DNA of 64,000 nucleotides, from positions 1,054 through 65,053 of the forward strand of contig CACFWO010000002.1 in assembly GCA_902570035.1 (NCBI GenBank), given 5' to 3'. The notes under the pieces are model-generated. The model made no database searches, had not been told where the DNA came from, and saw nothing but the letters and a program-made list of their open reading frames with translations. The translations under genes and the position numbers were made by a program. Of this stretch, positions 21,710 to 41,790 are shown piece after piece. This DNA is from an uncultured SAR86 cluster bacterium (GTDB lineage Bacteria > Pseudomonadota > Gammaproteobacteria > Magnimaribacterales > AG-339-G14). Each line of letters starts with the position of its first letter. Positions within the stretch are counted from its first letter, which is position 1.

Positions 21710-22591
21710 TTATGAATTAACTTCATCTATTTTGATGTCAGATTTAGACTCAAATTCTGATTGAAAGAATTCTCTTGGACAACCAAACAAACTTTCGCAG
21801 GAAAATTCTTTGCCCATTTCTACAGGAAAAATCTCACTTAATATATCCCTAACTTTGCCAGTCCAAATTGCGTAACCTCTAGAATTCATATGCAACATGT
21901 CAGGAATGTAAAGTTCTCTTCTTGGTTTACCTTCATCTGTGAACATCGTTTCAGATACATTTATTACAAAGAGATCAGGATCTTCCTTAGCAAGATCTTC
22001 AATATGTTCGTTCCATTTAAGTTGGAGGTTTCTTTGAAAAAAACGACTCGGCGAGGGCTGGATTTCAATGACAAATAATTTAGTATCTGGCAAATCACGT
22101 TTGACTCGATTATAAAAAATTTCAAAATCAAGCTTTACCTTATCGACTGGGTTGTATGCAGCAATGTCGTTAGTCCCGCAAAAAAATATGATGGCCTTTG
22201 GTTCATAAGGTAGGACAATCGATTCAAAGTGCCTGTTGATATGCTTAATGTGGGCTCCCCCAAAGCCTCTATTGATAACTTCCAAGGGTGCCATATCGTC
22301 TTGTAAGGATTTCCAAAGTCTTATTGATGAGCTACCGATAAAAAGAAACTTATTTTTGTCTGGAGGAGAGATTTGATCTTGAGCAACAAATGAATTGATA
22401 TCTTCATCAAATTTTTCTATGTCGTTGGAGTTATAGGATTTTAATCTTTCAATCCACATTTCTAGCTCCTCTTCGGTCAATTGGTAGCCCATCGACTTTG
22501 CAGTCTCTCTTATGGTTTTGGCATACTGGCTATCCTCATTGCTGAACAATGACAATGGCATCAGGATCAAGAAGATTAAAAAAACTTTCAT
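21710..22591 (-). CDS. SGNH/GDSL-type hydrolase with signal peptide
   Basis: 293 aa. Blocks FIGSSSI, GFGGA, GTND and DMLHMN correspond to SGNH blocks I, II, III and V. Confidence 0.7.
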   Translation of the reverse strand: MKVFLIFLILMPLSLFSNEDSQYAKTIRETAKSMGYQLTEEELEMWIERLKSYNSNDIEKFDEDINSFVAQDQISPPDKNKFLFIGSSSIRLWKSLQDDMAPLEVINRGFGGAHIKHINRHFESIVLPYEPKAIIFFCGTNDIAAYNPVDKVKLDFEIFYNRVKRDLPDTKLFVIEIQPSPSRFFQRNLQLKWNEHIEDLAKEDPDLFVINVSETMFTDEGKPRRELYIPDMLHMNSRGYAIWTGKVRDILSEIFPVEMGKEFSCESLFGCPREFFQSEFESKSDIKIDEVNS

Positions 22592-22634
22592 ATCTTTTAT
22601 ATATTTTGCATCAAAAATGATATCTTAGACTGCT

Positions 22635-23015
22635 ATGACAGACAAAATAATTCTGACAGTTATTGGCCTGGAATGGCTTATTTTTGGATTAATTGGATTA
22701 ATCAGCCCTGTTTACATAGCTACTTTATTGGATATGCAGTTAGGCTCTTCCATTGGTTACAGCGAACTCAGGGCAATGTATGCTTTTTTTACGTGCATGG
22801 GTTTAACTGCTCTATTGAGTTTATGGAATGTAAAACTTAAAAAAACCGTCTACCTATTATTTTGTATTGTTCTTGGATGCTTCTTAATTGGTAGAATCAT
22901 AAGTTTCATTTTTGATGGTTCGCCCACACAAGGAGGCATTATCATTTTTGTGAATGAACTTATTGTTTATGCTCTTGTAATGTGGAGATACAGGAAAAGA
23001 GAAGTTCTTTTTTAA
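22635..23015 (+). CDS. Small 4-helix membrane protein (possibly DUF4345-like)
   Basis: 126 aa with four hydrophobic segments. No catalytic motifs recognised. Confidence 0.45.
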   Translation: MTDKIILTVIGLEWLIFGLIGLISPVYIATLLDMQLGSSIGYSELRAMYAFFTCMGLTALLSLWNVKLKKTVYLLFCIVLGCFLIGRIISFIFDGSPTQGGIIIFVNELIVYALVMWRYRKREVLF

Positions 23016-23028
23016 ATTTAGTTGGGGT

Positions 23029-24705
23029 ATGGTTTTGCGGTTTCTTATTGTTATTTTTTCTATTTTTCTTATTGGGTGTAATTTTTCAGACGGAAAGGAC
23101 ACTGAAATCATAAGCCTTTCTCAAGGAGATTTAGTTGGTTTTGCAAAAGGCGAAACTGATTATTTTTTAGGCATACCTTATGCTGAGCCTCCAATAGGAG
23201 CTAATAGATTTGAACCGCCAAAATCTCATAAGGGTTGGAGCGATGTTTTAAAAGCAAAGGAAGCGGAAAAGCAGTGTATGCAACCTCAAGGTGAAGAAGG
23301 CGAATTAAGTGAGTTTTTTGAGGTTTTTCTTACAAAATCTGGAATGAAGTGGTGGGAACAAATCATTCTAGAAAATGCTGCGTGGCTTTTCGCAAGTTTA
23401 GATTTTGAGAAACAGCAATCCGAAGACTGCTTATTCATTAATATCATCAAACCGTCAAAAATAGATAACGGTTCTTTACCTGTTATGGTTTGGTTCCACG
23501 GAGGCGGTTATAACTTCGGTAACGGCGATGGACTATACATAACAGATAGATTTGCAAAACGTGACGTTATCTTGGTAACAATGAACTACCGATTAGGTCC
23601 ATTTGGATTTTTTGCACATCCGTTATTATCTGAAGCATCAAAAATGGGTGTCTCAGGAAATTATGGAACTTTAGATCAAATCCAAGCCTTAAAATGGGTG
23701 CAGACCAATATACATCTTTTTGGGGGCGATCCAGATAACGTAACTATTTTCGGTGAATCCGCCGGGGGAGCAAGCGTTGAAACCTTAGTGTCAACAAAAC
23801 TTGCAAAAGATCTTTTTCATAAAGCCATAGCTCAAAGCGGATACACAGTCGGAAGAGCAAGAAATATTAGAGAGCAAAGAGGAGATCTAATTTCTGCAGA
23901 ATCGCTCGGGGAAAAGTTTTTTCATTCAATATCTGGAATAGATAATCCTTCCGTGGAAGATATTAAGAATCTATCAGCGGATCTTTTTTTTGAAACTGAA
24001 AAATTCGAGAAAGAAAATGATAGTGAACAAGCTGGATGGTTTCCAATCGAAGACAAATGGGTTTTTGATTCGCCGACGCAAATAAGTTTTACCGAAGGCA
24101 AAACCAATGATGTCATTTACGTTGCAGGATTTAATGCAAATGAGGGTACTAATTTATCTCCTTTTGTTTTTGGTGAAAAACTTAATGAGAATGATTGGAT
24201 CAAACAAACTTGGGAGATGAGTGACTTTTTTTACCTTCCTTTACCTGATAGTGTAAAAGCATATGGCGAAAGTCTTGAATATTCGAAGGAACGATCTGCT
24301 AATGAATTGTGGGGTGATTTAGCATTTGGAGGAGATGGTTTTTTCATGGTTAATCAGTTTGCATCCAATGGCGGAGAAGCTTATTTATATTATTTTGAAA
24401 AAGGCCCGTCATCGGATACTCAAACTCTTGATGCCGCGCACGGCTTAGAGTTGTTTTATCTTTTCGATAACATAGTCCCATTTTGGCCTTGGAAAAAAAT
24501 AGATGATGGAATTAGAGATACCATGCTTAAGGATTGGACGGATATTGCAAAATATGGGAAACCACGAAGTGATTGGCAAAAATTTGATCCGAATAATCCC
24601 AAGGCAATGCATTATGGGCAGAGAATTGAATTCAAAACTCCCGAAAAACTTTCTCTTTATAAGAGTCTAGAAAAGGTTTATTTAGAAGAAGGAAAAAATT
24701 TCTAG
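23029..24705 (+). CDS. Type-B carboxylesterase/lipase, lipoprotein
   Basis: 558 aa. Lipobox LIGC, an oxyanion HGGG motif (WFHGGGY) and the nucleophile elbow GESAGG. Confidence 0.85.
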   Translation: MVLRFLIVIFSIFLIGCNFSDGKDTEIISLSQGDLVGFAKGETDYFLGIPYAEPPIGANRFEPPKSHKGWSDVLKAKEAEKQCMQPQGEEGELSEFFEVFLTKSGMKWWEQIILENAAWLFASLDFEKQQSEDCLFINIIKPSKIDNGSLPVMVWFHGGGYNFGNGDGLYITDRFAKRDVILVTMNYRLGPFGFFAHPLLSEASKMGVSGNYGTLDQIQALKWVQTNIHLFGGDPDNVTIFGESAGGASVETLVSTKLAKDLFHKAIAQSGYTVGRARNIREQRGDLISAESLGEKFFHSISGIDNPSVEDIKNLSADLFFETEKFEKENDSEQAGWFPIEDKWVFDSPTQISFTEGKTNDVIYVAGFNANEGTNLSPFVFGEKLNENDWIKQTWEMSDFFYLPLPDSVKAYGESLEYSKERSANELWGDLAFGGDGFFMVNQFASNGGEAYLYYFEKGPSSDTQTLDAAHGLELFYLFDNIVPFWPWKKIDDGIRDTMLKDWTDIAKYGKPRSDWQKFDPNNPKAMHYGQRIEFKTPEKLSLYKSLEKVYLEEGKNF

Positions 24706-25643
24706 AGCAGGTGCTTTTTCATGAAAGAAAGTGCTTGATCCATAGCGTCTCTTCTTATCGACCAATCTCCACCCGAATGAGCGCCAAACTTTATCTCGCC
24801 AGTTTCAAAAATTTTAACTCTATCTTCAAATGAGTTAGCACTCATTGCTTTTCCTTCATCGGTAATAAAAGTGATACTTCCATCGTTTTTCAATTGTGCA
24901 AACTTTTCATTTATTGCCAGCGCTTCAGGCCAAAAAGTTAGAGGATGAATAGAGTCAAAAGAGTGATGTCCTTTTTTAAATTCATATACCTCAACATCCG
25001 CACCAGCTTTCTTCATTTCTTTGCAAATATCTTTAACAAGAATGCCAGGCGTATAGTCATCATCTGAACCAATTAAATTTAAAATTGGAGCTTTTGACCA
25101 TCGATGTTCATCCGGATTCAAAAACGTTGGAGGATAAAAAGGTAGGTGAGCACAAAATCTCTCACCGTTTGGTGCAAGCTTCTCCATAATAGGTTCCCAC
25201 GCAGCATAAAAAGCTACCATGCCGCCTAAGCTCCAACCGGTAATTGCGATTTTATTTGCATCTAGATCGGGATGCCTTGATAAAAATTTTAAAGGTTCTA
25301 CCACATCAACCATCATCATGGCTGTTGTCACTGAGAGTTGATCTTCAACAGTGGAAGCAACCCCCCTCGAATCAAAACTGTGTGCTTTAAAGACTGCAAT
25401 TCCATTATTGAGAAAATTGAGCATATGTTCATGATGGTGCCCGGCCCAATTATCGCTTCCATGCGCGCAAATTACTAATGGATAGGGTTTTTTCCCCTGT
25501 TCTGGAAAAATTAACCAACCGAAACTATCTTGAGTTTCGGCTTCATCTAATTCATTAAATATTTGATAAAACTCATAAGGATTTTTGGATTTATATTCGA
25601 TGTATCCAAATTCGTTTTCTTTAAAGTTGATTTTTTCGTTCAC
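24702..25643 (-). CDS. Alpha/beta hydrolase (dienelactone hydrolase-like)
   Basis: 313 aa with a GTG start. GWSLGG nucleophile elbow and a late HH/HSF region. Confidence 0.7.
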   Translation of the reverse strand: MNEKINFKENEFGYIEYKSKNPYEFYQIFNELDEAETQDSFGWLIFPEQGKKPYPLVICAHGSDNWAGHHHEHMLNFLNNGIAVFKAHSFDSRGVASTVEDQLSVTTAMMMVDVVEPLKFLSRHPDLDANKIAITGWSLGGMVAFYAAWEPIMEKLAPNGERFCAHLPFYPPTFLNPDEHRWSKAPILNLIGSDDDYTPGILVKDICKEMKKAGADVEVYEFKKGHHSFDSIHPLTFWPEALAINEKFAQLKNDGSITFITDEGKAMSANSFEDRVKIFETGEIKFGAHSGGDWSIRRDAMDQALSFMKKHLL

Positions 25644-25732
25644 GTCTTATAATTATTGAGAATAATTCTTATTTGATGATTAAATTTGCCCCATAAAGTG
25701 TCATAATATCCAACCGAACTTTGAAGAATTGA

Positions 25733-28819: not shown

Positions 28820-28853
28820 GGCAAAATATAAAAAATTTAGATTGGAGAAAATT

Positions 28854-29843
28854 ATGAAAGCTTTTGTTTGTAATGAATTCGGACCTATTGATATTCATAA
28901 AGTAGAAGAAGTAGCAGAGCCAGAATTATTGGATGGCCAGGTATTAATTGATGTAAAAGCTGCTGGTGTCAGTTTTCCTGAAGTACTTATAGTCCAAGGC
29001 TTATATCAGTTTAAGCCTCCCTTTCCTTTTATTCCTGGAGGTGAAGTAGCTGGAGTAATTAGCAAAGTTGGCGCTGGCGTTGAGAACTTTAAGGAGGGTG
29101 ACAGAGTTATTGCCATGACTGGAACCAGTGGAATGGCTGAAAAGGTAGCTGTTTTTGCAGCTTCAATTTTTAAATTACCCGATTCTATGAACTTTGCTGA
29201 AGGAGCAGCATTCCCTTTAAATTATGGAACTACTATTCACGGACTAAAACAAAGAGCAAAGCTTCAGGAAGGTGAAACTCTTATGGTCTCTGGTGCAGCA
29301 GGCGGCCTAGGTATTACTGCCATTCACTTAGGTAAAGCAATGGGGGCTAAAGTAATTGCCACAGCATCCTCAGAAGAAAAATTAGAAATTTGCAAACAAG
29401 AAGGTGCTGATGAAGTTGTTCTATACCCCAGAGATATGGATAAAGATAAACAAAAAGAGCTTTCAAATAACTTAAAGGCTGTAGCTCCAAATGGGATAGA
29501 TGTTATTTACGATATTGTTGGCGGGGATTATGCCGAACCGTCTCTTAGAGCGATAGCAAGAAACGGCAGATATCTAGTGATAGGATTTACCGCTGGAATA
29601 CCAAAAATGCCTCTGAATTTGACCTTGCTAAAAGAATGTCAAATTGTTGGAGTATTTTGGGGACAATTCATAGGGTTAGAGCCTGAAGTAAATAAGCAGA
29701 ATTTTGATGACTGTTTTGAGATGGTTAATAGCAGAAAATTTAAACCTCTTGTCTCACATACCTATAAAATTGAAGATTCAATTAGTGCGCTGAAGTTTAT
29801 ACAAGATAGAAAGGCAACTGGGAAAGTTATTGTTGAAATGTAA
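28854..29843 (+). CDS. NADPH:quinone oxidoreductase-like MDR protein
   Basis: The start is placed at ATG 28854 (MKAFVCNEFGP) behind a GGAG SD. The ORF-track start at 28779 would overlap gshA. It carries a GAAGGLG Rossmann motif. Confidence 0.8.
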   Translation: MKAFVCNEFGPIDIHKVEEVAEPELLDGQVLIDVKAAGVSFPEVLIVQGLYQFKPPFPFIPGGEVAGVISKVGAGVENFKEGDRVIAMTGTSGMAEKVAVFAASIFKLPDSMNFAEGAAFPLNYGTTIHGLKQRAKLQEGETLMVSGAAGGLGITAIHLGKAMGAKVIATASSEEKLEICKQEGADEVVLYPRDMDKDKQKELSNNLKAVAPNGIDVIYDIVGGDYAEPSLRAIARNGRYLVIGFTAGIPKMPLNLTLLKECQIVGVFWGQFIGLEPEVNKQNFDDCFEMVNSRKFKPLVSHTYKIEDSISALKFIQDRKATGKVIVEM

Positions 29844-29869
29844 AAAAAGGGGGCTTTTGCCCCCTTTTT
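29844..29869. terminator. Bidirectional intrinsic terminator between convergent genes
   Basis: AAAAAGGGGGC-TTTT-GCCCCCTTTTT: a GC-clamped stem flanked by an A-run and a T-run. Confidence 0.8.
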
Positions 29870-29878
29870 CACAACACA

Positions 29879-30289
29879 TTAGTCAGAGCTATTGTTTATC
29901 CATAGTGGCAGGATAATGTAGAGCCCTAGAATCACCCAAAATAAAGTAATTAAAGGATCTCCAATCAATGAGTAAGTTGGTTCCCCTTCGCCAGCGAAGA
30001 AAGCTATAAAGCTATCAAACCTTCCGGAAGGTTCTTCAACCTGGCTTAATGCATAAGCTGTTCCCGCGGTTGTCCAATCGGTAAAGGCTTGTTGAACAAT
30101 GCCAAAATAAACGATTAGAAGTCCGAAAACGGTTGTGACCAGTTTTGTAAACAAGTTCGCGTTTCCAGAATTTACTAGATTTAAAGTAACTCTCGCTGCA
30201 AACCAAGCAGCAAAGAAGGTAAATAATGTAAATATCCCTCTGCTTACCAAAGCAAGCTGATAAGACGACCATATTTCATATTCATTCAT
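29879..30289 (-). CDS. Paralog 1 of uncharacterised ~135-aa 3-TM membrane protein family
   Basis: The start is placed at ATG 30289 (MNEYEIW) behind GGGAGAA, whereas the ORF-track start is an upstream TTG. It shares the W-x3-R, NLFTKLVTTVFGLLIV and FIAFFAGEGE blocks with the three neighbours. Confidence 0.75.
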   Translation of the reverse strand: MNEYEIWSSYQLALVSRGIFTLFTFFAAWFAARVTLNLVNSGNANLFTKLVTTVFGLLIVYFGIVQQAFTDWTTAGTAYALSQVEEPSGRFDSFIAFFAGEGEPTYSLIGDPLITLFWVILGLYIILPLWINNSSD

Positions 30290-30351
30290 ATTTTCTCCCA
30301 TGTTTAATGAATTCAATCTTTATATTATTTGAAATTATTGGTTCTTGAAAC

Positions 30352-30380
30352 AAAAAAAGGAGGCTTGCGCCTCCTTTTTT
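30352..30380. terminator. Intrinsic terminator downstream of paralog 2
   Basis: AAAAAAAGGAGGC-TTGC-GCCTCCTTTTTT lies 12 nt after the stop of 30392..30796. Confidence 0.8.
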
Positions 30381-30391
30381 CTAAATATTAC

Positions 30392-30796
30392 TCAACTTTG
30401 TTTTTTGACCCAAATTGGTGCTAATAACATTATTGTCACAACTAACCAAAACACAGCAAAAACTGGATTGTTTGGAATCAAATTAAAAGTTGTTTCGCCG
30501 GTTCCAAGGAACTCAACAAAGGCTTGTCCTGATGAAGACAAATTATCAAGCTCAGCTAGCTCGTTAACTACACTCTGCCAAGTTATATCTAAGAAGCCAA
30601 TCGTTTGTAAGTTAATAAAAACTATTCCTAATGCAAATAAAGTCACTAAGATTTTATTCAACATTGGTGCGCCTTCATCATAAATTCTAAGAGTAGCTCT
30701 AAAACCTACCCAAAGTAAAAATAGTCCCCCAACTTGAAAAATTGCATTACTGATCAAGAAGCTATAAAAGCCCATCATTATTTCATTTTCAGTCAT
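30392..30796 (-). CDS. Paralog 2 of uncharacterised ~135-aa 3-TM membrane protein family
   Basis: 134 aa. SD TAGGAGAA. Blocks W-VGF-R, PMLNKILVTLFALGIV, FVEFLGTGE and a C-terminal PIW. Confidence 0.75.
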   Translation of the reverse strand: MTENEIMMGFYSFLISNAIFQVGGLFLLWVGFRATLRIYDEGAPMLNKILVTLFALGIVFINLQTIGFLDITWQSVVNELAELDNLSSSGQAFVEFLGTGETTFNLIPNNPVFAVFWLVVTIMLLAPIWVKKQS

Positions 30797-30858
30797 ATTT
30801 TTTCTCCTATAAAATTTGAACTGAATTAATATTAGATAAATAGAATGTGAAAAGCCAT

Positions 30859-30891
30859 AAAAAAAGGAGGTTAAGAACCTCCCTTTTTTTT
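30859..30891. terminator. Intrinsic terminator downstream of paralog 3
   Basis: GGAGGTT-AAG-AACCTCC stem (30866-30882) flanked by an A-run and an 8-T run. Confidence 0.8.
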
Positions 30892-30907
30892 GGCTTTAGA
30901 TTGACTT

Positions 30908-31324
30908 TTAACTTTTTGGAGCTGGGGAAGTCCACATACCACCTATAAGCCCTACGAGAATTGCTAATATAAATACAATTCCTATTGGGTCAGACGGGAT
31001 TAATGACGAATTGACGTATTCTGTTGCTCCAGTGCTTTCAACAAAAAGTTGAAGCGCACCATTAAGTTCTTCTCCTGATTCAGAAAGAGCATAAGCCCAG
31101 TTGTTCACAGTGGAAGTTATGTTGCTATAAGTTCCAGCAAAGAAACTTACAATGCATAAAGACATTATTGTGTGCACCACTTTTCCAAAAGTATTTGCAC
31201 CATATATATAAGCATTGCTTACCCCTCTAAACATCATCCAAAGAAGCAATACATTCCCAACAAAAAAAGTTGCGAATAGCTGCATAAAGCCAAGATAGCT
31301 TTCTGAAATTTGTGTTATTTCCAT
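30908..31324 (-). CDS. Paralog 3 of uncharacterised ~135-aa 3-TM membrane protein family
   Basis: 138 aa. SD TAGGAGA. Blocks W-MMF-R, NTFGKVVHTIMSLCIV, FVESTGATE and a C-terminal GMW. Confidence 0.75.
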   Translation of the reverse strand: MEITQISESYLGFMQLFATFFVGNVLLLWMMFRGVSNAYIYGANTFGKVVHTIMSLCIVSFFAGTYSNITSTVNNWAYALSESGEELNGALQLFVESTGATEYVNSSLIPSDPIGIVFILAILVGLIGGMWTSPAPKS

Positions 31325-31347
31325 TTTTATCTCCTATTTTAAAAAAT

Positions 31348-31755
31348 TTATTTTCTTGGTATCCATATCAAACCAATAATCATTATGGCGACAGTAACCA
31401 AAAATATAAGTCCAATTGTATCGGGCATTCCAACAGGCTCCGTTGTGCCAACAAAATCTAGAAAACCTTGAGCACCTATTGGATCAGGAGCATTTTCAAC
31501 TCCCATCTCGGTTATCCTCCTTGCAGTCATAACCCAGTTGTTTGCTGCGATGGCAAACGCTTGAAAAGAGCCTGCAACAATTGAAAGCCCAAAGACTGTA
31601 CTTAAAATTTTGGTAAACAAATTTGAAGATGGATTCTCTCCAGTCATATTAGCTGTTCTTAAGGCCAGCCAAATTGCAATAATGCAACCTATAAAAGTTA
31701 ATGCATCTGCCAATCTATTCATTTGAAAAGAATTCAAAATAAATTCTGCATCCAT
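31348..31755 (-). CDS. Paralog 4 of uncharacterised ~135-aa 3-TM membrane protein family
   Basis: 135 aa. SD AGGAGGAG. Blocks W-LAL-R, NLFTKILSTVFGLSIV, FLDFVGTTE and a C-terminal LIW. There is a 23-nt gap to paralog 3. Confidence 0.75.
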   Translation of the reverse strand: MDAEFILNSFQMNRLADALTFIGCIIAIWLALRTANMTGENPSSNLFTKILSTVFGLSIVAGSFQAFAIAANNWVMTARRITEMGVENAPDPIGAQGFLDFVGTTEPVGMPDTIGLIFLVTVAIMIIGLIWIPRK

Positions 31756-31813
31756 AATCTCCTCCTATTAGAAAATGTAATAATTAATTTTAACAAATCT
31801 AATAGATTTATTT

Positions 31814-31857
31814 AGACTTTGTGTAAAAAAGTTGCAGACTTTGTGCAAAAAAGTTGC
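31814..31857. repeat. 2 x 22-bp tandem direct repeat in divergent promoter region
   Basis: AGACTTTGTGTAAAAAAGTTGC followed by AGACTTTGTGCAAAAAAGTTGC, with one mismatch. A degenerate third partial copy (AATGTCAAAA) follows. Confidence 0.85.
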
Positions 31858-31900
31858 AAAGAATGTCAAAATTTTCTGAATAAATGAGTATAGTTTACAA

Positions 31901-32215
31901 ATGTTCGAAATTTATTTAGATAAAGCAAAAAAATACCGTTTCCGCTTAAAAGCGAGAAATGGAGAGAATATCTGCGCTAGTCAGGCCTACACATCAAAAT
32001 CTTCTTGTATGAAAGGGATAAAATCTGTTGCTAAAAACGCAAAATCTAAAGACAACTTTATTTCTCAGGAATCTAAATCTGGAAAATGGACTTTTAGATT
32101 AAAGTCTGGAAATAATAAAGTTATAGCAACCAGCCAATCATACAAAGATAAATCGTCCATGAATAAAGGGATTAAAAGTGTGATGACTAATGCTCCAAAG
32201 CTTGTAATAGATTAA
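31901..32215 (+). CDS. yegP: YegP-family protein (two DUF1508 repeats)
   Basis: 104 aa. Internal duplication: KYRFRLKARNGENICASQAYTSKSSCMKGIKSV and KWTFRLKSGNNKVIATSQSYKDKSSMNKGIKSV. Confidence 0.75.
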   Translation: MFEIYLDKAKKYRFRLKARNGENICASQAYTSKSSCMKGIKSVAKNAKSKDNFISQESKSGKWTFRLKSGNNKVIATSQSYKDKSSMNKGIKSVMTNAPKLVID

Positions 32216-32248
32216 TACTTTCCTTTTATCTTTTTGGAAAGCCATTAA

Positions 32249-33568
32249 TTATTGCCAAGTAACTTTTGCAAAAGTACCAGTGGTGCAATAAAAAATATCT
32301 CTGTTGAAACCAGGTGTTAAAAACATACCGTTGGCTAATCTTGCATTTACATCGACTTTGCTAAGTAATTCTCCAGTCTGAATATCCACAACAATTAAAT
32401 AGTCTTTATCGTTTTCAAAACTATTGATCACCAGTTCTTTTGTCTCAGGAAAAACAACCGGCTGCATGGTTGGTCTAACTTCTAAAGTCCAAGATAAATC
32501 TAGATTTCCATTTTTTGTTGAAATACCTGCTAATCCTCCGTTAAGACTGTCCCATGCAATGCAGGTTTCTAATTCTGGAACATTAACCGGTGGAGCAATG
32601 ATACCCCCGCCATTTTTTTCAAAAGGTTCAATGGAGGATAGATTTGATGTTGTGAGATCAAGCCTTATAAGTCTTTGTTTGCCAGTCCATGGTGCAGGGC
32701 TTCTCCAACTCAAATGAGTATTTTCTTCAACTCTGCCGTTGGGATGAACACCGTAAATTTGTCTTACTGAATCTATATCTCCGTTATCCATCAACCAAAG
32801 AGCCCCATCAGAGATGCACCCATCCCATGCTAAACCTTGAACACCTTCCTCATTTCTATAAGGTGGCTGCCACTCTTGATCAATTTCTAAATTTTTTTCA
32901 TTAATCTTCAATCGCCAGATTCTCGAGATTCCTGGGACGTAAATGTATTCGCCTTCTGAAGTTAAATCACTTGCAATCCTCCCCATTGAACCTTCAGGAA
33001 GTTGGATAGTCTCGATAACCTCAAGATTATCAGGATTTAACCTAGTTATTGAAGAATTACTTTGATTTTCAAGTCTGCAGTCTTTAGTGACTATAGTTCC
33101 GTCAGATAAAATTAATAATCCATTGTGAGCCTGATCAATAGGAAGCTGTTTTTCAATTAAAACTTGGCACTTACTATTTAAAACATGCATAAAATTTCCG
33201 TTAACCTTGATAATGTTTCCATTGTTGTGGACAGCTATGGCTCCGCACCACACATGGTCCCCGCAGGGTAAATTAGGACTTTCACTGATAGTCTCAAGGG
33301 TTACAGGATCTATTCTTTGCAACCATCCGAAAGGTTTTGGTCCGTTGAAGAATGGCATCGTTCCGCCAAGATAAAACTCATTCTTGTCTCTTCTTACAAC
33401 CATTACATTCCATTTTCCGGAAAGAACCGATTCTACTTTTGCATTAGCTCCCTTAGCAAACAGACCACCTTTGGCTGCTTTCTGTCTTCTGTTCCCCCCA
33501 CACTCAACAGGCCATGGAGATTTAAAATAACCAGGATGTTGGTTTTCTCTATCTAATGAGTTACTCAA
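32249..33568 (-). CDS. Hypothetical cytoplasmic protein, beta-rich (possible beta-propeller)
   Basis: 439 aa with no signal peptide. Repeated short beta-strand/turn patterns rich in G/N/D/W. No family recognised. Confidence 0.5.
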   Translation of the reverse strand: MSNSLDRENQHPGYFKSPWPVECGGNRRQKAAKGGLFAKGANAKVESVLSGKWNVMVVRRDKNEFYLGGTMPFFNGPKPFGWLQRIDPVTLETISESPNLPCGDHVWCGAIAVHNNGNIIKVNGNFMHVLNSKCQVLIEKQLPIDQAHNGLLILSDGTIVTKDCRLENQSNSSITRLNPDNLEVIETIQLPEGSMGRIASDLTSEGEYIYVPGISRIWRLKINEKNLEIDQEWQPPYRNEEGVQGLAWDGCISDGALWLMDNGDIDSVRQIYGVHPNGRVEENTHLSWRSPAPWTGKQRLIRLDLTTSNLSSIEPFEKNGGGIIAPPVNVPELETCIAWDSLNGGLAGISTKNGNLDLSWTLEVRPTMQPVVFPETKELVINSFENDKDYLIVVDIQTGELLSKVDVNARLANGMFLTPGFNRDIFYCTTGTFAKVTWQ

Positions 33569-35147: not shown

Positions 35148-36148
35148 GCGGGGCTTATTGTAGATGATTTTAGTCTAACAAAGGATAAATACATCAGAAG
35201 GAATAAGGCTCCTAAGTTGTGAGCGATGGCAACGTATAAAGGAACTTGAAAATATATATTGGATATACCTAAAACTATTTGGAAAGAAATTAGTGACGCA
35301 AAACCCAAAGAAGTTAAAGGATAATTTTCCTTGAAAAAACGCCACGATAAAAGAAGGAAGACAATGGATACAGCAATTGCACCCAATCTATGAATAAAGT
35401 GAATCGCTATTCTGGATTCCACATCCATCTGTCCTCCAAGGTAATCGGGTCCGATTTGCTGAAAGAAATTAAAACCTTTTGCATAGTCTGCTGGAGGCAA
35501 CCACTTTCCATGACAAGTTGGAAAGTCTGGACATGCTAATGCTGCATAATTTGAACTTAGCCAAACTCCTAAAATTATTTGAGCAAGCAGAAATGGAAAG
35601 GCCCAATTAAGGAGAGTGCTCGTTTTTGGTAACAATGAAAAGTTAATATTAAAAGATGATCTTAAATGGGATGACCTTAAAAAAATTAGGAAAACCAAAG
35701 TAGTGGTAAAAAAACCTCCTAACAGGTGCAAGGTAACAACTTGCGGCCACAGTTTCAGGCTTACGGTTAGATAACCAAAAAGCGACTGGACACAAACCAG
35801 CAAAGTGGCAGCATAAATAAGGTTTTTGAGCCATTTATCCTTGGTCTTAGCAATAATAGCGATAAAAAATAGGCCAAAAATAAGTAAGCCAAGAGTTCCA
35901 GCAAAATATCTATGGACAACTTCTGGAATTGCCTTTTCAACTTCAAATTGCCTTTCCGGATAAGCAATGTTGGCTTGCTCAATTTCAGATTCTGTTTCTG
36001 GCATCCAAACGTAGCCGTAACAGCCAGGCCAATCGGGGCAACCTAATCCGGCATCGACTAATCTCGTCCATGCTCCTAAACCCACTACAACAAAGGCTAG
36101 GAAGATTCCTATCAGGCTAATTACTTGAATTCTCTTATAGCTATCCAA
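35144..36148 (-). CDS. ctaA: Heme A synthase (COX15/CtaA)
   Basis: 334 aa with about 8 TM helices. CPDWPGC and CPDFPTC pairs and conserved His residues (HR..A). Confidence 0.8.
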   Translation of the reverse strand: MDSYKRIQVISLIGIFLAFVVVGLGAWTRLVDAGLGCPDWPGCYGYVWMPETESEIEQANIAYPERQFEVEKAIPEVVHRYFAGTLGLLIFGLFFIAIIAKTKDKWLKNLIYAATLLVCVQSLFGYLTVSLKLWPQVVTLHLLGGFFTTTLVFLIFLRSSHLRSSFNINFSLLPKTSTLLNWAFPFLLAQIILGVWLSSNYAALACPDFPTCHGKWLPPADYAKGFNFFQQIGPDYLGGQMDVESRIAIHFIHRLGAIAVSIVFLLLSWRFFKENYPLTSLGFASLISFQIVLGISNIYFQVPLYVAIAHNLGALFLLMYLSFVRLKSSTISPA

Positions 36149-36728
36149 TTTTTGAAACCCTCAATAATTTTTTTAAGTCTTCAAGGATTTGCTTAAAGTT
36201 TTCATTTTTATCCTCTTTAGGACCATAAAACATGATGATGTTTCCTAAAGGATCAACTATAAACAAGGATCCCTCCTCAAAAGGATCAATATTCTGGCTT
36301 TCAAATTCTTTAGCTATCAAAGAGCCCTCTAGATAAGTAGCATGGTTAAGTGGCTTATATTTTTCCAAGATATCGTAGTCTTTATCTGACTCGCTGAGGA
36401 GAAATCTTGACACTCGGATACTCTCTCGATTTAAGGCTATGTTGGCTTGTCTTGCAACATAAGCTGCATCATCGCAAGTTGATGAGCAATCACCTTTAAT
36501 AAACTGGAAGATCATCCAGTCTCTTTCGATGGTTTCAATGTTAAAGGGTTGATACTCATAAGTGACCCCAAGCTCACCAACATCAATTGGCGGCGACAGA
36601 AGTTGGCCGTTATTTACCCTACCTTCTGGAAGTGATGCACCCGAGTAGTACCATACTGTGCTTGAGAGGATCACCAAGATTGGAGTTAAGAAAATTAGCA
36701 TCGCTATGACAAAATTTTTCTTAATCAT
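36141..36728 (-). CDS. Membrane-anchored protein of unknown function in cox assembly cluster (CxxxC, thioredoxin/SCO-like?)
   Basis: The start is placed at ATG 36728 (MIKKNF), which forms an ATGATTAA overlap with the SURF1 stop. It has one N-terminal TM helix and a GDCSSTCDD motif. Confidence 0.5.
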   Translation of the reverse strand: MIKKNFVIAMLIFLTPILVILSSTVWYYSGASLPEGRVNNGQLLSPPIDVGELGVTYEYQPFNIETIERDWMIFQFIKGDCSSTCDDAAYVARQANIALNRESIRVSRFLLSESDKDYDILEKYKPLNHATYLEGSLIAKEFESQNIDPFEEGSLFIVDPLGNIIMFYGPKEDKNENFKQILEDLKKLLRVSKIG

Positions 36729-37446
36729 TTTTTCTAAACCCTGCAAAAATAAAACCTGCCAAAGCAACCAAGCTCAAGCCTAACCATTGTATTGCATAGC
36801 CAAAATGACGATTAGCTGATAAGTAAACGGGTTGCCAAATCCTGGAGAATCCATCTAATGAGAATTCATCAAGTTCAAAGACTACAGCTGGAAAGTTTGT
36901 ATTCCACTTCAGATTAATACTGTCGATATCAAAGGACTGCATTTCTAAATCACTTTCTTCCCTTTCATAGATTGAATTATCAATCGTGAAAGCTTTTTCA
37001 ATGGGTCTGAAAACTCCCTGCAATAAATAATTTTGATCTAAAGTCTTTTTTGAACTATCGAATGAATTTGACCATCCTTTTGATACCAAAAGTGATAAGC
37101 CATTATTAGATAAAAACTCTTGATAAACAGAAAAACCACGAACTCCTTCATAGATTGCGTTGTCTACTAAAACTGTCTTTTTGCTGAATTTGCCTTGCAT
37201 AAAAAAGGGTCTATACCATTGGCTGGGAGATGCATATTCTAGAGAAATAAATTCGGTTGGGGGCTTTGTTTGCTGATTATTAATAAAACTTTCAAGCTTA
37301 GATTTTTCTAGACCTCTTTGGTATTGCCAAAAACTTAAACTTAATAAAATTGGTAACATTACTGTTATTAAAGTAATAAACTTCCAACCTGGATTAAATT
37401 TTCTAATGTTAGTAAAAATACTCATCGTCGTTTTAATGATTGCCAT
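36721..37446 (-). CDS. SURF1-family cytochrome oxidase assembly protein
   Basis: RKFNPGWKFITL..SFWQYQRG N-terminal signature and a C-terminal TM with YAIQW. The start is ambiguous: ATG 37446 has an AAGAGG SD, and 37425 and 37485 are alternatives. Confidence 0.75.
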   Translation of the reverse strand: MAIIKTTMSIFTNIRKFNPGWKFITLITVMLPILLSLSFWQYQRGLEKSKLESFINNQQTKPPTEFISLEYASPSQWYRPFFMQGKFSKKTVLVDNAIYEGVRGFSVYQEFLSNNGLSLLVSKGWSNSFDSSKKTLDQNYLLQGVFRPIEKAFTIDNSIYEREESDLEMQSFDIDSINLKWNTNFPAVVFELDEFSLDGFSRIWQPVYLSANRHFGYAIQWLGLSLVALAGFIFAGFRKND

Positions 37447-40653: not shown

Positions 40654-41790
40654 TTAAAGTTTGTTATTTTTATAATCCAAAATTTCTTTTGGAATTACGA
40701 TTTCTCCGTCACCACTAGCATCGTTACCCCACGCCTTCCTGGTATAGGTAATAACGGCTGCAATGTCGACTTCAGAAAGCTGTTCAGCGTAAGACTGCAT
40801 AGCAGCACCTTGAACTCCTTCCATTAAAATTTCTATTTGTTTGGCTTTGTCATTTAGCACAAGATCGCTTCCTGCTAATGCAGGGAAAACTGGAGGTAAT
40901 CCTTCCCCATTGACTTGATGGCATGCTACACAATTGGTTTGGTAAACACCTTCTCCAATTTCATAAAGTTCTTCTGTTGACCAAAGCTTTTCAGTGAGAA
41001 GTGCTTGTTGAATTTTTGCTTCTTTCTTCTCGTTTACCCAAAGTTCGTAATCTTGAGGTGATACTGCCTTAACAACAACTGGCATGTATCCGTGATATTG
41101 CCCGCATAGCTCAGTACATTGACCTCTGAAAATTCCTTCTTCGTCTACCTGCGTCCAAGCTGTATTTATAAAACCAGGGATAGCATCTTGCTTAACCGCA
41201 AAATCAGGAACCCACCATGAGTGGATTACATCGTTAGCTGTGATTAAAAATCTGATTCTTTTATTGGTTGGTATGACTAAAGGCTCATCAACTTCCAAAA
41301 GATAGTTATCTGATTTCGGGGCAATATTATTTCTTTGATCTAAATCTGTGGACAGGTTGCTGAAAAAACTTACTTCGTCTTCTAGGTACTCATACTGCCA
41401 CTTCCACTGATGTCCGGTAATTAAAATATTGATATCTCCTTCTGCATCATCGTATGCACGAATCATTGTGAAGGTTGCCGGAATTGCCATGACTGCCAAA
41501 ATAACAGCAAATAAAACGGTCCAGGTCATTTCTAAAACTGGATGGTCATCAAACTGTGCTGGTTTGTCACCTTCTTTTTTTCTAAAAGCAACTATGAGGT
41601 AAACCATAAAGCCGAGCACTAATGCTCCAATGACCACGCATATCCAGAAGATAGTCATGTGCAGATCAAAAATTTCTCTGCTGAGGGCATTAACTCCAGG
41701 AGTCATATTCACGTCTCCCCAACCAGCAAAAAGCGAAAGGGATGCGCAACAGGTAATTAATGCCGCAAAAATTCTTTTAATTAGTACCAT
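40654..41790 (-). CDS. coxB: Cytochrome c oxidase subunit II with C-terminal cytochrome c domain
   Basis: 378 aa. CuA site (HSWWVP..CTELCGQYHGYM) plus C-terminal heme-binding CVACH. Confidence 0.92.
   Translation of the reverse strand: MVLIKRIFAALITCCASLSLFAGWGDVNMTPGVNALSREIFDLHMTIFWICVVIGALVLGFMVYLIVAFRKKEGDKPAQFDDHPVLEMTWTVLFAVILAVMAIPATFTMIRAYDDAEGDINILITGHQWKWQYEYLEDEVSFFSNLSTDLDQRNNIAPKSDNYLLEVDEPLVIPTNKRIRFLITANDVIHSWWVPDFAVKQDAIPGFINTAWTQVDEEGIFRGQCTELCGQYHGYMPVVVKAVSPQDYELWVNEKKEAKIQQALLTEKLWSTEELYEIGEGVYQTNCVACHQVNGEGLPPVFPALAGSDLVLNDKAKQIEILMEGVQGAAMQSYAEQLSEVDIAAVITYTRKAWGNDASGDGEIVIPKEILDYKNNKL

What the first reader, a model, noticed from the sequence alone, without database searches (positions are those of the whole stretch)
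29879..31755. Tandem array of four deeply diverged paralogs of an unrecognisable ~135-aa three-helix membrane protein
Four consecutive minus-strand ORFs are clearly paralogous at protein level, although I see no DNA-level repeat. They are 29879-30289, 30392-30796, 30908-31324 and 31348-31755, encoding 136, 134, 138 and 135 aa.

All four share one architecture:
- A short acidic N-terminus.
- TM1 ending in W-x3-R (WFAAR, WVGFR, WMMFR, WLALR).
- TM2 carrying N-x-F-x-K-[ILV]-[LV]-x-T-x-[FM]-x-L-x-I-V (NLFTKLVTTVFGLLIV, PMLNKILVTLFALGIV, NTFGKVVHTIMSLCIV, NLFTKILSTVFGLSIV).
- A polar loop of about 40 aa with an F-[VIL]-x-F-x-G-x-x-E-like block (FIAFFAGEGE, FVEFLGTGE, FVESTGATE, FLDFVGTTE).
- TM3 ending in x-W just before a short polar tail.

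Each gene has a strong SD (AGGAGGAG, TAGGAGA, TAGGAGAA, GGGAGAA). The three cleanest intrinsic terminators I found in the window all sit in this array. Their GGAGG/CCTCC or GGGGGC stems carry A/T runs. This suggests high, individually tuned expression.

I cannot place the family in any characterised protein family. In a streamlined, gene-dense genome, four old duplicates that keep the same topology argue for one of two things. They could be four distinct subunits of a hetero-oligomeric membrane assembly, or four specialised variants. Recent amplification looks unlikely. No mobile-element genes flank the locus.
Basis: partly seen in the sequence, partly recalled or inferred. Interest (0 to 1): 0.8.

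Follow-up and report, generated by a model that had tools for sequence, protein, structure and literature searches.

The report
Unclassified three-helix membrane protein gene array
Four neighbouring genes in this SAR86 marine bacterium encode old, diverged copies of a small three-helix inner-membrane protein that matches no known family or fold, carries strong expression signals, and also occurs as a single stand-alone gene in SAR11, Polaribacter and other plankton bacteria, so it is a real family of unknown function and not a fixed four-subunit complex.

Summary
Four minus-strand genes (136, 134, 138 and 135 aa) are true paralogs: alignment z-scores are 8-25 against shuffles, and dN/dS is 0.04-0.27. 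The predicted topology is N-out/C-in with three helices.

No library places the family: Pfam, NCBIfam, PHROGs, PADLOC, PDB sequences, and Foldseek against PDB and BFVD using a pLDDT 95.8 model. A full HMMER scan of 1.84 billion representatives finds only 198 clusters, all about 127-151 aa.

The window is SAR86. Across 22 SAR86 species the array sits at one fixed site, downstream of the cytochrome oxidase/SCO1 cluster. It holds 1-4 copies drawn from at least 6 subfamilies, and only the type at 30908-31324 is always present. Outside SAR86 the gene stands alone, with no shared neighbours and no oxidase genes. An obligate four-subunit complex is therefore not supported. "Interchangeable specialised variants" fits better.

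All four genes have Shine-Dalgarno sites in the top 10 of 65 window genes, and three compact terminators follow three of them. Alleles are swapped between lineages by recombination.

In 15 of 22 SAR86 species, but not in this window, a Fur-family operator precedes the array. This hints at control by metal limitation. Function remains inferred.

The parts
31348..31755 (-). Paralog W4 (135 aa). It is the first gene of a bicistronic W4-W3 unit. Its subfamily is sister to the SAR11 (Pelagibacteraceae) members.
   Evidence: ORF. Alignment. HMM E = 4.9e-40. Tree. dN/dS 0.08-0.27. In 13 of the 22 other SAR86 loci a W4-type gene directly precedes the W3-type gene, and one search finds no convincing terminator between them.
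30908..31324 (-). Paralog W3 (138 aa). This is the conserved core type, present in all 22 SAR86 loci.
   Evidence: 110 of 120 best database hits are W3 orthologues.. Identity to distant SAR86 orthologues is 60-71%. dN/dS 0.06-0.16. AlphaFold model pLDDT 95.8.
30392..30796 (-). Paralog W2 (134 aa), a monocistronic cassette with its own Shine-Dalgarno site and terminator.
   Evidence: It is 100% identical in L001 but only 53% identical in L002, L006 and L021, whose flanks are nearly identical to the window.
29879..30289 (-). Paralog W1 (136 aa), a monocistronic cassette. The start is the ATG at 30289, not the TTG at 30316.
   Evidence: dN/dS 0.04-0.07.
30859..30889 (-). Intrinsic terminator after W3. 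The stem GGAGGTT/AACCTCC lies at 30866-30882. An A-run and a T-run on either side make it usable in both directions.
   Evidence: An equivalent GC hairpin plus T-run follows the W3-type gene in 20 of 22 SAR86 loci, with different stem sequences.
30352..30379 (-). Intrinsic terminator after W2: GGAGGC-GCAA-GCCTCC at 30359-30374, followed by T7.
   Evidence: (-11.2 kcal/mol).
29842..29869 (.). Bidirectional terminator: GGGGGC-AAAA-GCCCCC at 29849-29864. It is shared by W1 and the convergent quinone-oxidoreductase-like gene (28845-29843 +).
   Evidence: (-12.5 and -13.1 kcal/mol on the two strands).
31759..31766 (-). Shine-Dalgarno site AGGAGGAG of W4. The SD sites of W3, W2 and W1 are at 31330-31336, 30803-30809 and 30294-30299.
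31756..31900 (.). Divergent promoter region between W4 and the DUF1508/YegP gene. It holds TTGACA at 31864-31869, a perfect 7-1-7 palindrome AAATCTA-T-TAGATTT at 31795-31809, and a 22-bp tandem direct repeat at 31814-31857.
   Evidence: The 22-bp repeat is not found in L002 or any other locus. No Fur-type box occurs here.
25654..25674 (.). The only strong Fur-family-type operator in the window: TATTGAGAATAATTCTTATTT. It lies between the alpha/beta-hydrolase gene (24702-25643 -) and pckA (25733 +). The same motif precedes the array in 15 other SAR86 species. It is not part of the array here, but it is the comparison site for its regulation.
   Evidence: (PWM score 25.2).

Best explanation
**What it is.** Each of the four genes encodes a complete, self-sufficient small inner-membrane protein. 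The N-terminus faces the periplasm and the C-terminus the cytoplasm, with three membrane helices. The two periplasmic segments are acidic: the conserved N-terminus M-x-E-x-(E/Q)-(I/L)-W, and a loop of about 40 residues containing a short helix. I infer that they form one acidic periplasmic face.

**How the array arose and behaves (shown).** It arose by old tandem duplication of a 'Shine-Dalgarno site, gene, terminator' cassette. It now behaves as a set of interchangeable variants. W3 is the core gene, W4-W3 form a co-transcribed pair, and W2 and W1 are separate single-gene units. Related SAR86 lineages gain, lose and swap these cassettes by recombination.

**How it most likely works (inferred).** The protein is made in large amounts. 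It acts as a homo-oligomer, or as mixed oligomers of whichever paralogs are present. I think it is a non-catalytic structural or accessory membrane component, and not an enzyme or an ion-coupled transporter. The helices carry no conserved charged residues, and the family has almost no His or Cys.

**Regulation (inferred by orthology).** In most SAR86 species the first unit of the array lies behind a Fur-family (Fur or Zur type) operator. There it is probably switched on when a metal, iron or zinc, is scarce. The lineage of this window has lost that operator.
For: **Shown**
- Paralogy and purifying selection.
- Topology from charge bias over 67 members and from two models, pLDDT 87.5 and 95.8.
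- Stand-alone nature. The array has 1-4 copies in SAR86. Nine further contexts outside the 21 syntenic SAR86 loci (SAR11, Polaribacter, other lineages) hold one or two copies with no shared neighbour. No real domain fusions occur.
- Cassette duplication. Terminators and 5' ends are in register at 507-510 nt.
- Expression signals. SD ranks are 1 and 7 of 65. SD of -7.3 kcal/mol or stronger precedes every SAR86 copy, and GC-hairpin terminators follow most units.
- Allele exchange. Against L006 and L021, flanking genes have dS 0.18-0.6 while the array has dS 1.3-3.0. Against L001, flanks have dS 0.8-2.6 while W2 and W1 have dS 0.04-0.09.
- No conserved charged residue inside the helices. His is 0.3% and Cys 0.5% of residues. 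Glu3 is conserved in 58 of 67 members.
- Operator. The palindrome TGAGAAT-n-ATTCTCA lies about 35 nt upstream of the first family gene in 15 of 22 SAR86 loci. In 469 kb of SAR86 DNA the matrix finds only one other conserved site.
- Meaning of the operator. In metagenomes 62 of 85 exact matches are intergenic. I identified the adjacent genes by reading their sequences, not by a profile search: FbpA-type and ZnuA-type binding proteins, a TonB-dependent receptor, FTR1, ZIP, SufC and Fur-family regulators. The E. coli Fur box GATAATGATAATCATTATC and its 7-1-7 reading are taken from PMC11353095.

**Inferred**
- High abundance, oligomerisation, the accessory role and the metal response.
Against: - There are no expression or proteomic data, so abundance is inferred from signals alone.
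- The Fur-type operator is absent from this window's array (best matrix score 5.9). It is also absent from L001, L002, L003, L006, L021 and L022, and from all ten non-SAR86 family loci scanned. The metal link may therefore be a lineage-specific add-on.
- I could not tell Fur from Zur.
- No oligomer prediction could be run.
- A three-helix protein with no polar helix residues could also be a passive anchor or a partner of something encoded elsewhere.
- The absence of a fold match is weak evidence for so simple a helical fold.
Confidence: 0.45

Rival explanations
1. The four products are four distinct, obligatory subunits of one hetero-oligomeric membrane assembly.
For: - Four old paralogs are kept side by side under purifying selection.
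- W4 and W3 are separated by 23 nt with no terminator, and this pairing recurs in 13 of the 22 other SAR86 loci. A W4:W3 heteromer is therefore plausible.
Against: - Copy number is 1-4 in SAR86, and different subfamilies fill the array in different species.
- L010 and L022 carry only one copy.
- SAR11 and Polaribacter carry one copy with no partner.
- Three of the four genes have their own terminators, which does not suit fixed stoichiometry.
Confidence: 0.07
2. The proteins are accessory (subunit-IV-like) or assembly components of the aa3/caa3 cytochrome c oxidase encoded just upstream.
For: - In 21 of 22 SAR86 loci the array lies directly downstream of coxB-coxA-ctaG-coxC-SURF1-x-ctaA-cyoE-SCO1 on the same strand.
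- From my own knowledge, the size and three-helix build resemble the small oxidase subunits CyoD and CtaF.
Against: - No match to COX4_pro or any oxidase family.
- Gene order on both sides is conserved throughout SAR86, so the adjacency may be inherited order.
- In the window, L001 and L002, two unrelated genes lie between SCO1 and the array.
- The array has its own operator, Shine-Dalgarno sites and terminators.
- None of the nine contexts outside the 21 syntenic SAR86 loci has cox genes nearby.
Confidence: 0.12
3. The cassettes are immunity, phage-exclusion or other conflict genes. In this reading the diversity reflects an arms race.
For: - Copy number varies.
- At least 6 subfamilies are mixed between species.
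- Alleles are far more diverged than their flanks (dS 1.3-3.0 against 0.2-0.6), and there is recent exchange with L001.
- One SAR11-type copy lies next to a DruA gene, in a context different from that of its identical copy.
Against: - No PADLOC or PHROGs hit.
- No relatives in IMG/VR, GenBank phages or plasmids.
- No toxin, nuclease or secretion genes nearby.
- dN/dS is 0.04-0.27, and W3 is as conserved as neighbouring housekeeping genes.
- The periplasmic loop is not more variable than the helices (entropy 2.67 against 2.35-2.61).
- Other segments of the window, such as the esterase at 23029, show the same mosaic pattern, so recombination is not special to the array.
Confidence: 0.1
4. The three-helix protomers assemble, like SemiSWEETs, into a small homo- or hetero-oligomeric channel or transporter for a cation or small solute.
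For: - The gene stands alone with no partner.
- The periplasmic face is acidic, with conserved Glu3.
- A Fur/Zur-type operator occurs in relatives.
- One family gene lies 2 kb from a Fur-family regulator, a znuCB-like transporter and cobW.
Against: - No conserved charged residues and few polar ones inside the helices. The only conserved polar helix position is Thr/Ser at W3 position 52 (W1 residue T53).
- Almost no His or Cys.
- No similarity to MtN3/PQ-loop or any transporter family.
- No fold match.
Confidence: 0.15

Closest known systems
Small three-helix subunits of haem-copper oxidases (CyoD / CtaF, Pfam COX4_pro)
   Same: About 110-140 aa with three membrane helices and no cofactor ligands. 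They are encoded beside the oxidase genes, as this array is in SAR86.
   Different: There is no sequence match. The family has a long acidic periplasmic loop. Outside SAR86 the gene stands alone without oxidase genes. It has its own promoter region and terminators. The comparison of size and build rests on my own knowledge of CyoD and CtaF.
VirB2/TrbC-type type IV secretion pilins (Pfam T4SS_pilin, PF18895)
   Same: Both have a hairpin of two hydrophobic helices joined by a short basic cytoplasmic loop. They are strongly expressed small proteins, and paralogs can occur in tandem. This was the only Pfam family hit by more than three members (4 of 67, best E = 5e-4).
   Different: The hits are few and weak. 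The family has no signal peptide, and it has a third helix plus a 40-residue loop. No secretion or pilus assembly genes occur in any of the loci.
SemiSWEET and other three-helix protomers that act as oligomers
   Same: A stand-alone three-helix unit of about 100-140 aa that needs no other gene product. Tandem paralogs could give heteromers.
   Different: There is no PQ-loop/MtN3 match, no fold match and no polar translocation-path residues.
Members of Fur/Zur regulons (metal-limitation genes)
   Same: In 15 of 22 SAR86 species the first family gene is preceded by TGAGAAT-n-ATTCTCA. In metagenomes the same motif sits next to iron and zinc uptake genes and Fur-family regulators.
   Different: No known Fur or Zur regulon protein resembles this family. 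The operator is missing in this window's array and outside SAR86.

Membership tests
Any curated protein family (Pfam-A, NCBIfam) | Profile score at or above the curated cut-off | tested here: not met
   The four paralogs have best Pfam E = 0.059, with 13 bits against a cut-off of 32, and no NCBIfam hit. Of 67 diverse members, no family is hit by more than 4.
Any solved or predicted-viral fold | Significant Foldseek match of a confident model | tested here: not met
   Models have pLDDT 87.5 and 95.8. The best PDB E-values are 1.6 and 1.7, and the best BFVD E-value is 0.65. The PDB sequence profile gives a best E of 0.11. AlphaFold DB was not available.
Cytochrome oxidase subunit IV (COX4_pro, CyoD/CtaF) | Sequence match to the family profile | tested here: not met
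   No hit.
Cytochrome oxidase subunit IV (COX4_pro, CyoD/CtaF) | Encoded with the oxidase genes wherever the family occurs | tested here: not met
   Adjacent in 21 of 22 SAR86 loci. Absent from L022 and from the SAR11, Polaribacter and other contexts.
Cytochrome oxidase subunit IV (COX4_pro, CyoD/CtaF) | Physical association with subunits I-III | not testable with these tools
   Needs purification of the oxidase.
Type IV secretion pilin (VirB2/TrbC, PF18895) | Profile match, a cleaved signal peptide followed by two helices, and neighbouring secretion genes | tested here: not met
   Only 4 of 67 members hit, with best E = 5e-4. The N-terminus is short and acidic with no signal peptide, and there are three helices. 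No secretion genes occur in any locus.
TRAP transporter small permease DctQ (the name JGI gives to P0009) | DctQ profile match, four helices, and adjacent DctM/DctP genes | tested here: not met
   No DctQ hit. Three helices. No DctM/DctP neighbours. Other source names for family members ('Flp pilus assembly protein TadB', 'cytochrome c biogenesis factor', 'predicted permease') contradict each other.
Anti-phage defence or phage-borne genes | Match to PADLOC or PHROGs models, or presence on phage or plasmid records | tested here: not met
Fur-family (Fur/Zur) regulon | Operator of the 7-1-7 type overlapping the promoter | tested here: not met
   For this window's array, the best matrix score is 5.9. 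The feature is met in 15 of 22 related SAR86 loci, with scores of 18.8-28.6.
Fur-family (Fur/Zur) regulon | Metal-dependent expression and regulator binding | not testable with these tools
   Needs expression data or a binding assay.
Obligate hetero-tetramer of the four paralogs | All four types co-occur wherever the system is present | tested here: not met
   Copy number is 1-4 and the subfamily sets vary.

The most novel reading that the evidence does not exclude
This is a previously undescribed class of abundant small membrane protein shared by several of the ocean's abundant heterotroph groups (SAR86, SAR11, Polaribacter). It would assemble from interchangeable three-helix protomers into a new kind of inner-membrane structure with an acidic periplasmic cap. 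In most SAR86 it would be deployed under iron or zinc scarcity. Cells would tune or diversify the assembly by swapping paralog cassettes.
Probability: 0.2. Interest if true: 0.75.

Novelty: categorically new. Interest (0 to 1): 0.55.

Why it matters
SAR86 and SAR11 are among the most abundant heterotrophs in the surface ocean, and their genomes are small. Such a genome keeping up to four copies of one unknown gene, each with unusually strong translation and termination signals, suggests a protein that is made in quantity and is needed.

No sequence or fold library says what the family does. It is compact (198 clusters) and confidently modelled. It offers three ready experimental handles:
- a Fur-family operator in most SAR86 species;
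- a conserved W4-W3 gene pair;
- natural one-copy and four-copy genomes.

If the link to metal limitation is real, the family adds an unrecognised component to how ocean bacteria cope with iron or zinc scarcity.

The claim of novelty applies to the protein family only. No new mechanism has been shown.

Tried and rejected
**Library searches, all negative**
- Pfam and NCBIfam on the four paralogs.
- Pfam on 67 members one by one. This gave only scattered weak hits: T4SS_pilin in 4 of 67, Colicin_V in 3 of 67 and DUF202 in 3 of 67. I treat these as hydrophobic-helix noise.
- PHROGs and PADLOC.
- PDB sequence profile.
- Foldseek of two models against PDB and of one against BFVD.
- IMG/VR, GenBank phages and plasmids.
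- Rfam on the window and ten loci, looking for a riboswitch or leader in the long upstream regions. The only hit was one tRNA.

**Other dead ends**
- Domain fusions that could hint at a partner. The longer hits (P0163, P0187, P0327) are frameshifted or mis-started versions.
- Conserved neighbours outside SAR86: none. GYD and NIPSNAP-like genes lie directly upstream in two lineages, which is too few to build on.
- Literature searches by taxon, by keyword and by the accession numbers of family members found nothing on this family.
- The first attempt to scan genomes with the four-sequence alignment failed because no stretch was conserved enough.
- A sigma-54 or CRP reading of the 22-bp repeat upstream of W4, made by eye, does not fit either consensus. 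The repeat is unique to this window.

**Hypotheses considered and set aside**
- Hetero-tetramer.
- Oxidase subunit.
- Conflict or immunity cassette.
- Channel or transporter.
Each is treated under the rival explanations.
Full report
**1. The observation**

Four minus-strand ORFs lie at 29879-30289, 30392-30796, 30908-31324 and 31348-31755. I call them W1 to W4 in that order.

- They align over their full length with 27-30% identity and 14 invariant columns.
- All six pairwise Smith-Waterman scores exceed every one of 300 shuffles, with z = 8-25.
- W1 should start at the ATG at 30289, not the upstream TTG. This gives the family N-terminus and a GGGAGA Shine-Dalgarno site.
- Orthologue comparisons give dN/dS of 0.04-0.27 for all four, so they are real genes under purifying selection.

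**2. Anatomy of the protein**

Two AlphaFold models were made: W1 with 17 sequences (pLDDT 87.5) and W3 with 67 sequences (pLDDT 95.8, pTM 0.82). Both give the same build:
- a long helix, residues 3-41;
- a tight turn;
- a second long helix, 45-81;
- a short helix, 89-98;
- an extended stretch;
- a third helix, 113-131.

Over 67 diverse members the charge distribution is as follows:

| Segment | K+R per protein | D+E per protein |
|---|---|---|
| N-tail | 0.03 | about 2 |
| Helix 1-2 loop | 2.85 | 1.34 |
| 40-residue loop | 1.39 | 3.99 |
| C-tail | 1.52 | 0.46 |

By the positive-inside rule, the N-terminus and the long loop face the periplasm, and the short loop and the C-terminus face the cytoplasm.

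The near-invariant residues are Met1, Arg33, Lys48 and Trp131. Trp29, Phe54 and Glu3 follow (Glu3 in 58 of 67). No charged residue is conserved inside a helix. His and Cys make up 0.3% and 0.5% of all residues. This argues against an enzyme, a metal-site protein or an ion-coupled carrier. It fits a structural or accessory membrane protein whose working surface is the small acidic periplasmic face.

**3. What the family is not**

- None of the four paralogs or 67 relatives reaches a curated threshold in Pfam or NCBIfam.
- PHROGs and PADLOC give nothing.
- A profile search of PDB sequences gives nothing below E = 0.11.
- Foldseek gives nothing below E = 1.6 in PDB or 0.65 in BFVD.
- There are no relatives in IMG/VR, GenBank phages or plasmids.
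- The few names that public sources attach to members contradict each other and match nothing in the neighbourhoods. They are TRAP small permease, TadB, cytochrome c biogenesis factor and predicted permease.
- For so simple a helical fold, the absence of a structural match is only weak evidence of a new fold. AlphaFold DB could not be searched.

**4. How big the family is and who has it**

A full HMMER scan of 1.84 billion representative proteins finds 198 clusters at E <= 0.001. All are 127-151 aa when complete. Longer hits are frameshifted or mis-started.

The window belongs to the SAR86 clade. The closest loci are SAR86 single-cell genomes, with 93-100% identical neighbours.

The family is not confined to SAR86. 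Members are named by NCBI as Pelagibacteraceae, Polaribacter sp. and Pseudomonadota. Their contigs have G+C from 28% to 50%.

**5. Genomic context**

In 21 of 22 SAR86 species the array lies at one fixed place. It is directly downstream of, and on the same strand as, coxB-coxA-ctaG-coxC-SURF1-(208 aa)-ctaA-cyoE-SCO1. It is followed by a convergent zinc-type dehydrogenase gene, gshA and pckA.

In the window, L001 and L002, a 439-aa ORF with no family match and a DUF1508/YegP gene are inserted between SCO1 and the array.

Copy number varies:

| Copies | Loci |
|---|---|
| 1 | 2 |
| 2 | 9 |
| 3 | 8 |
| 4 | 3, plus the window |

A neighbour-joining tree separates at least six subfamilies:
- The W3 type is in every SAR86 locus and has short branches.
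- The W4 type is sister to the SAR11 members.
- Some species carry a subfamily that the window lacks.

Outside these 21 syntenic SAR86 loci I read nine contexts: L022 (a more distant gammaproteobacterial MAG recovered with the SAR86 set), an unassigned 1.1-kb contig, Polaribacter, SAR11, a Pseudomonadota lineage with two copies, and four unnamed lineages. Each has one or two copies. No neighbour is shared and there are no oxidase genes.

The protein therefore does its job without the other paralogs and without any co-located partner. This rules out an obligate four-subunit complex. It also makes the oxidase adjacency look like inherited gene order, although I cannot exclude a link specific to SAR86.

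**6. Expression signals**

Most genes in this window have little or no Shine-Dalgarno pairing (median -1.0 kcal/mol). W4 is the strongest of 65 genes at -10.2. W1, W2 and W3 tie at rank 7 at -7.3.

Every SAR86 copy in 22 species has -7.3 or stronger.

Three compact GC hairpins with T7 tails follow W3, W2 and W1, and they top my terminator scan of the whole window. Equivalent hairpins with different stem sequences follow the W3-type gene in 20 of 22 species. The W4-type gene is followed by W3 after 10-25 nt with no convincing terminator.

The transcription units are therefore W4-W3, W2 and W1. High expression is inferred from these signals. It has not been measured.

**7. How the array evolved**

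The terminators are in register at 510 and 507 nt, and the 5' ends of W1 and W2 still share 78% identity over 37 nt at a spacing of 507 nt. The duplicated unit was therefore a complete cassette.

The locus is mosaic between close relatives:

| Compared with | Flanking genes | Array genes |
|---|---|---|
| L006, L021 | 94-100% aa identity, dS mostly 0.18-0.6 | 53-86% aa identity, dS 1.3-3.0 |
| L001 | dS 0.8-2.6 | W2 and W1 nearly identical, dS 0.04-0.09 |

Alleles are exchanged by recombination. The same pattern is seen at the carboxylesterase/DUF4345/lipase segment (21710-24705), so this is not unique to the array.

Selection within each allele class is purifying. The periplasmic loop is not more variable than the helices. 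I therefore rate an arms-race explanation as unlikely.

**8. A regulatory lead**

Aligning the upstream regions showed a 7-1-7 palindrome with consensus TAATGAGAATnATTCTCATTA. It is centred about 35 nt before the first family gene in 15 of 22 SAR86 loci, just after a -10-like TATATT.

A matrix built from these sites finds only one other conserved location in 469 kb of SAR86 DNA. That site is the divergent region between an alpha/beta hydrolase gene and pckA, at 25654-25674 in the window.

An exact-pattern scan of metagenome contigs returned 85 sites, of which 62 are intergenic. I identified the adjacent genes by reading their sequences, not by a profile search. They include:
- two FbpA-type iron-binding proteins;
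- a TonB-dependent receptor;
- an FTR1 permease with its REGFE motif;
- a siderophore-binding protein;
- SufC;
- four ZnuA-type proteins with His-rich loops;
- a ZIP transporter;
- four Fur-family regulators.

The motif differs from the Fur 7-1-7 half-site at one position per arm. The E. coli Fur box GATAATGATAATCATTATC is quoted from PMC11353095. I conclude that it is a Fur-family operator, of Fur or Zur type.

Only the first unit of each array has it. The window's own array does not (best score 5.9). Neither do its five closest relatives, L022 or any non-SAR86 locus. One unnamed lineage has the family gene 2 kb from a Fur-family regulator, a znuCB-like transporter and cobW. That is suggestive but weak.

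Control by metal limitation is therefore an inference from orthologues and may not apply to this genome.

**9. Verdict**

- It is unclassified, compact and spread across several abundant aquatic bacterial lineages.
- The 'four subunits' reading is not supported. 'Interchangeable, separately expressed variants around a core W3 gene' is supported.
- The mechanism I commit to is an abundant, non-catalytic, oligomeric inner-membrane component with an acidic periplasmic face, placed under a Fur-family repressor in most SAR86. My confidence is moderate to low (0.45), and lower still for the functional part taken alone.
- Novelty is at the level of the protein family.
- Interest is moderate. Conserved hypothetical membrane proteins are common, but few combine this host range, these expression signals, the cassette behaviour and a testable regulatory lead.

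Noticed in passing
window 25654-25674; also L001 15652, L002 15140, L006 15629, L021 15637, and weaker sites in L009-L019: A Fur-family-type palindrome (TATTGAGAATAATTCTTATTT) lies between an alpha/beta-hydrolase gene (24702-25643 -) and pckA (25733 +). It is conserved at this place in most SAR86 loci. pckA and a DLH-like hydrolase are unusual targets for a metal regulator.
   Followed up: partly
window 31901-33568: A 439-aa ORF (32249-33568 -) with no Pfam or PADLOC match and a DUF1508/YegP gene (31901-32215 +) lie between SCO1 and the array. They are present only in the window, L001 and L002, so they form an indel relative to the other 19 SAR86 species.
   Followed up: partly
window 31814-31857 and 31795-31809: A perfect-register 22-bp tandem direct repeat (GCAACTTTTTT[A/G]CACAAAGTCT on the minus strand) and a perfect 7-1-7 palindrome (AAATCTA-T-TAGATTT) lie upstream of W4. 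The repeat is absent from L002, although the W4 gene there is 98% identical.
   Followed up: partly
window 21710-24705: The carboxylesterase (23029-24705), DUF4345 (22635-23015) and GDSL-lipase (21710-22591) genes are only 57-83% identical in L002, L003 and L021. Their neighbours are 97-99% identical. This is a second allele-swapped segment, made up of ester and lipid hydrolases.
   Followed up: no
window 36141-36767: A 208-aa ORF inside the oxidase assembly cluster, between SURF1 and ctaA, has no Pfam match. It is conserved in position in all SAR86 loci, at 39-93% identity.
   Followed up: no
window 40654-41790: The coxB product carries a C-terminal cytochrome c domain (COX2 plus Cytochrome_CBB3/Cytochrom_C), so the oxidase is of the caa3 type.
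   Followed up: no
L027 8001-8429 compared with L028 1422-1850: The identical 142-aa SAR11-type protein, with about 90 nt of identical upstream DNA, occurs in two different upstream contexts. In one of them it lies next to a DruA (Druantia) gene. This suggests the gene borders a variable region in SAR11.
   Followed up: no
L033 5656-6441; L035 5273-6420: In two unrelated lineages the family gene is directly preceded on the same strand by a small GYD or (faintly matching) NIPSNAP-like gene. The gaps are 15 and 93 nt.
   Followed up: no
L030 8001-8429 and 9547-9954: A Pseudomonadota lineage (47% G+C) has two diverged family copies in convergent orientation on either side of an alpha/beta-hydrolase gene, next to a DUF4149 membrane protein gene.
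   Followed up: no
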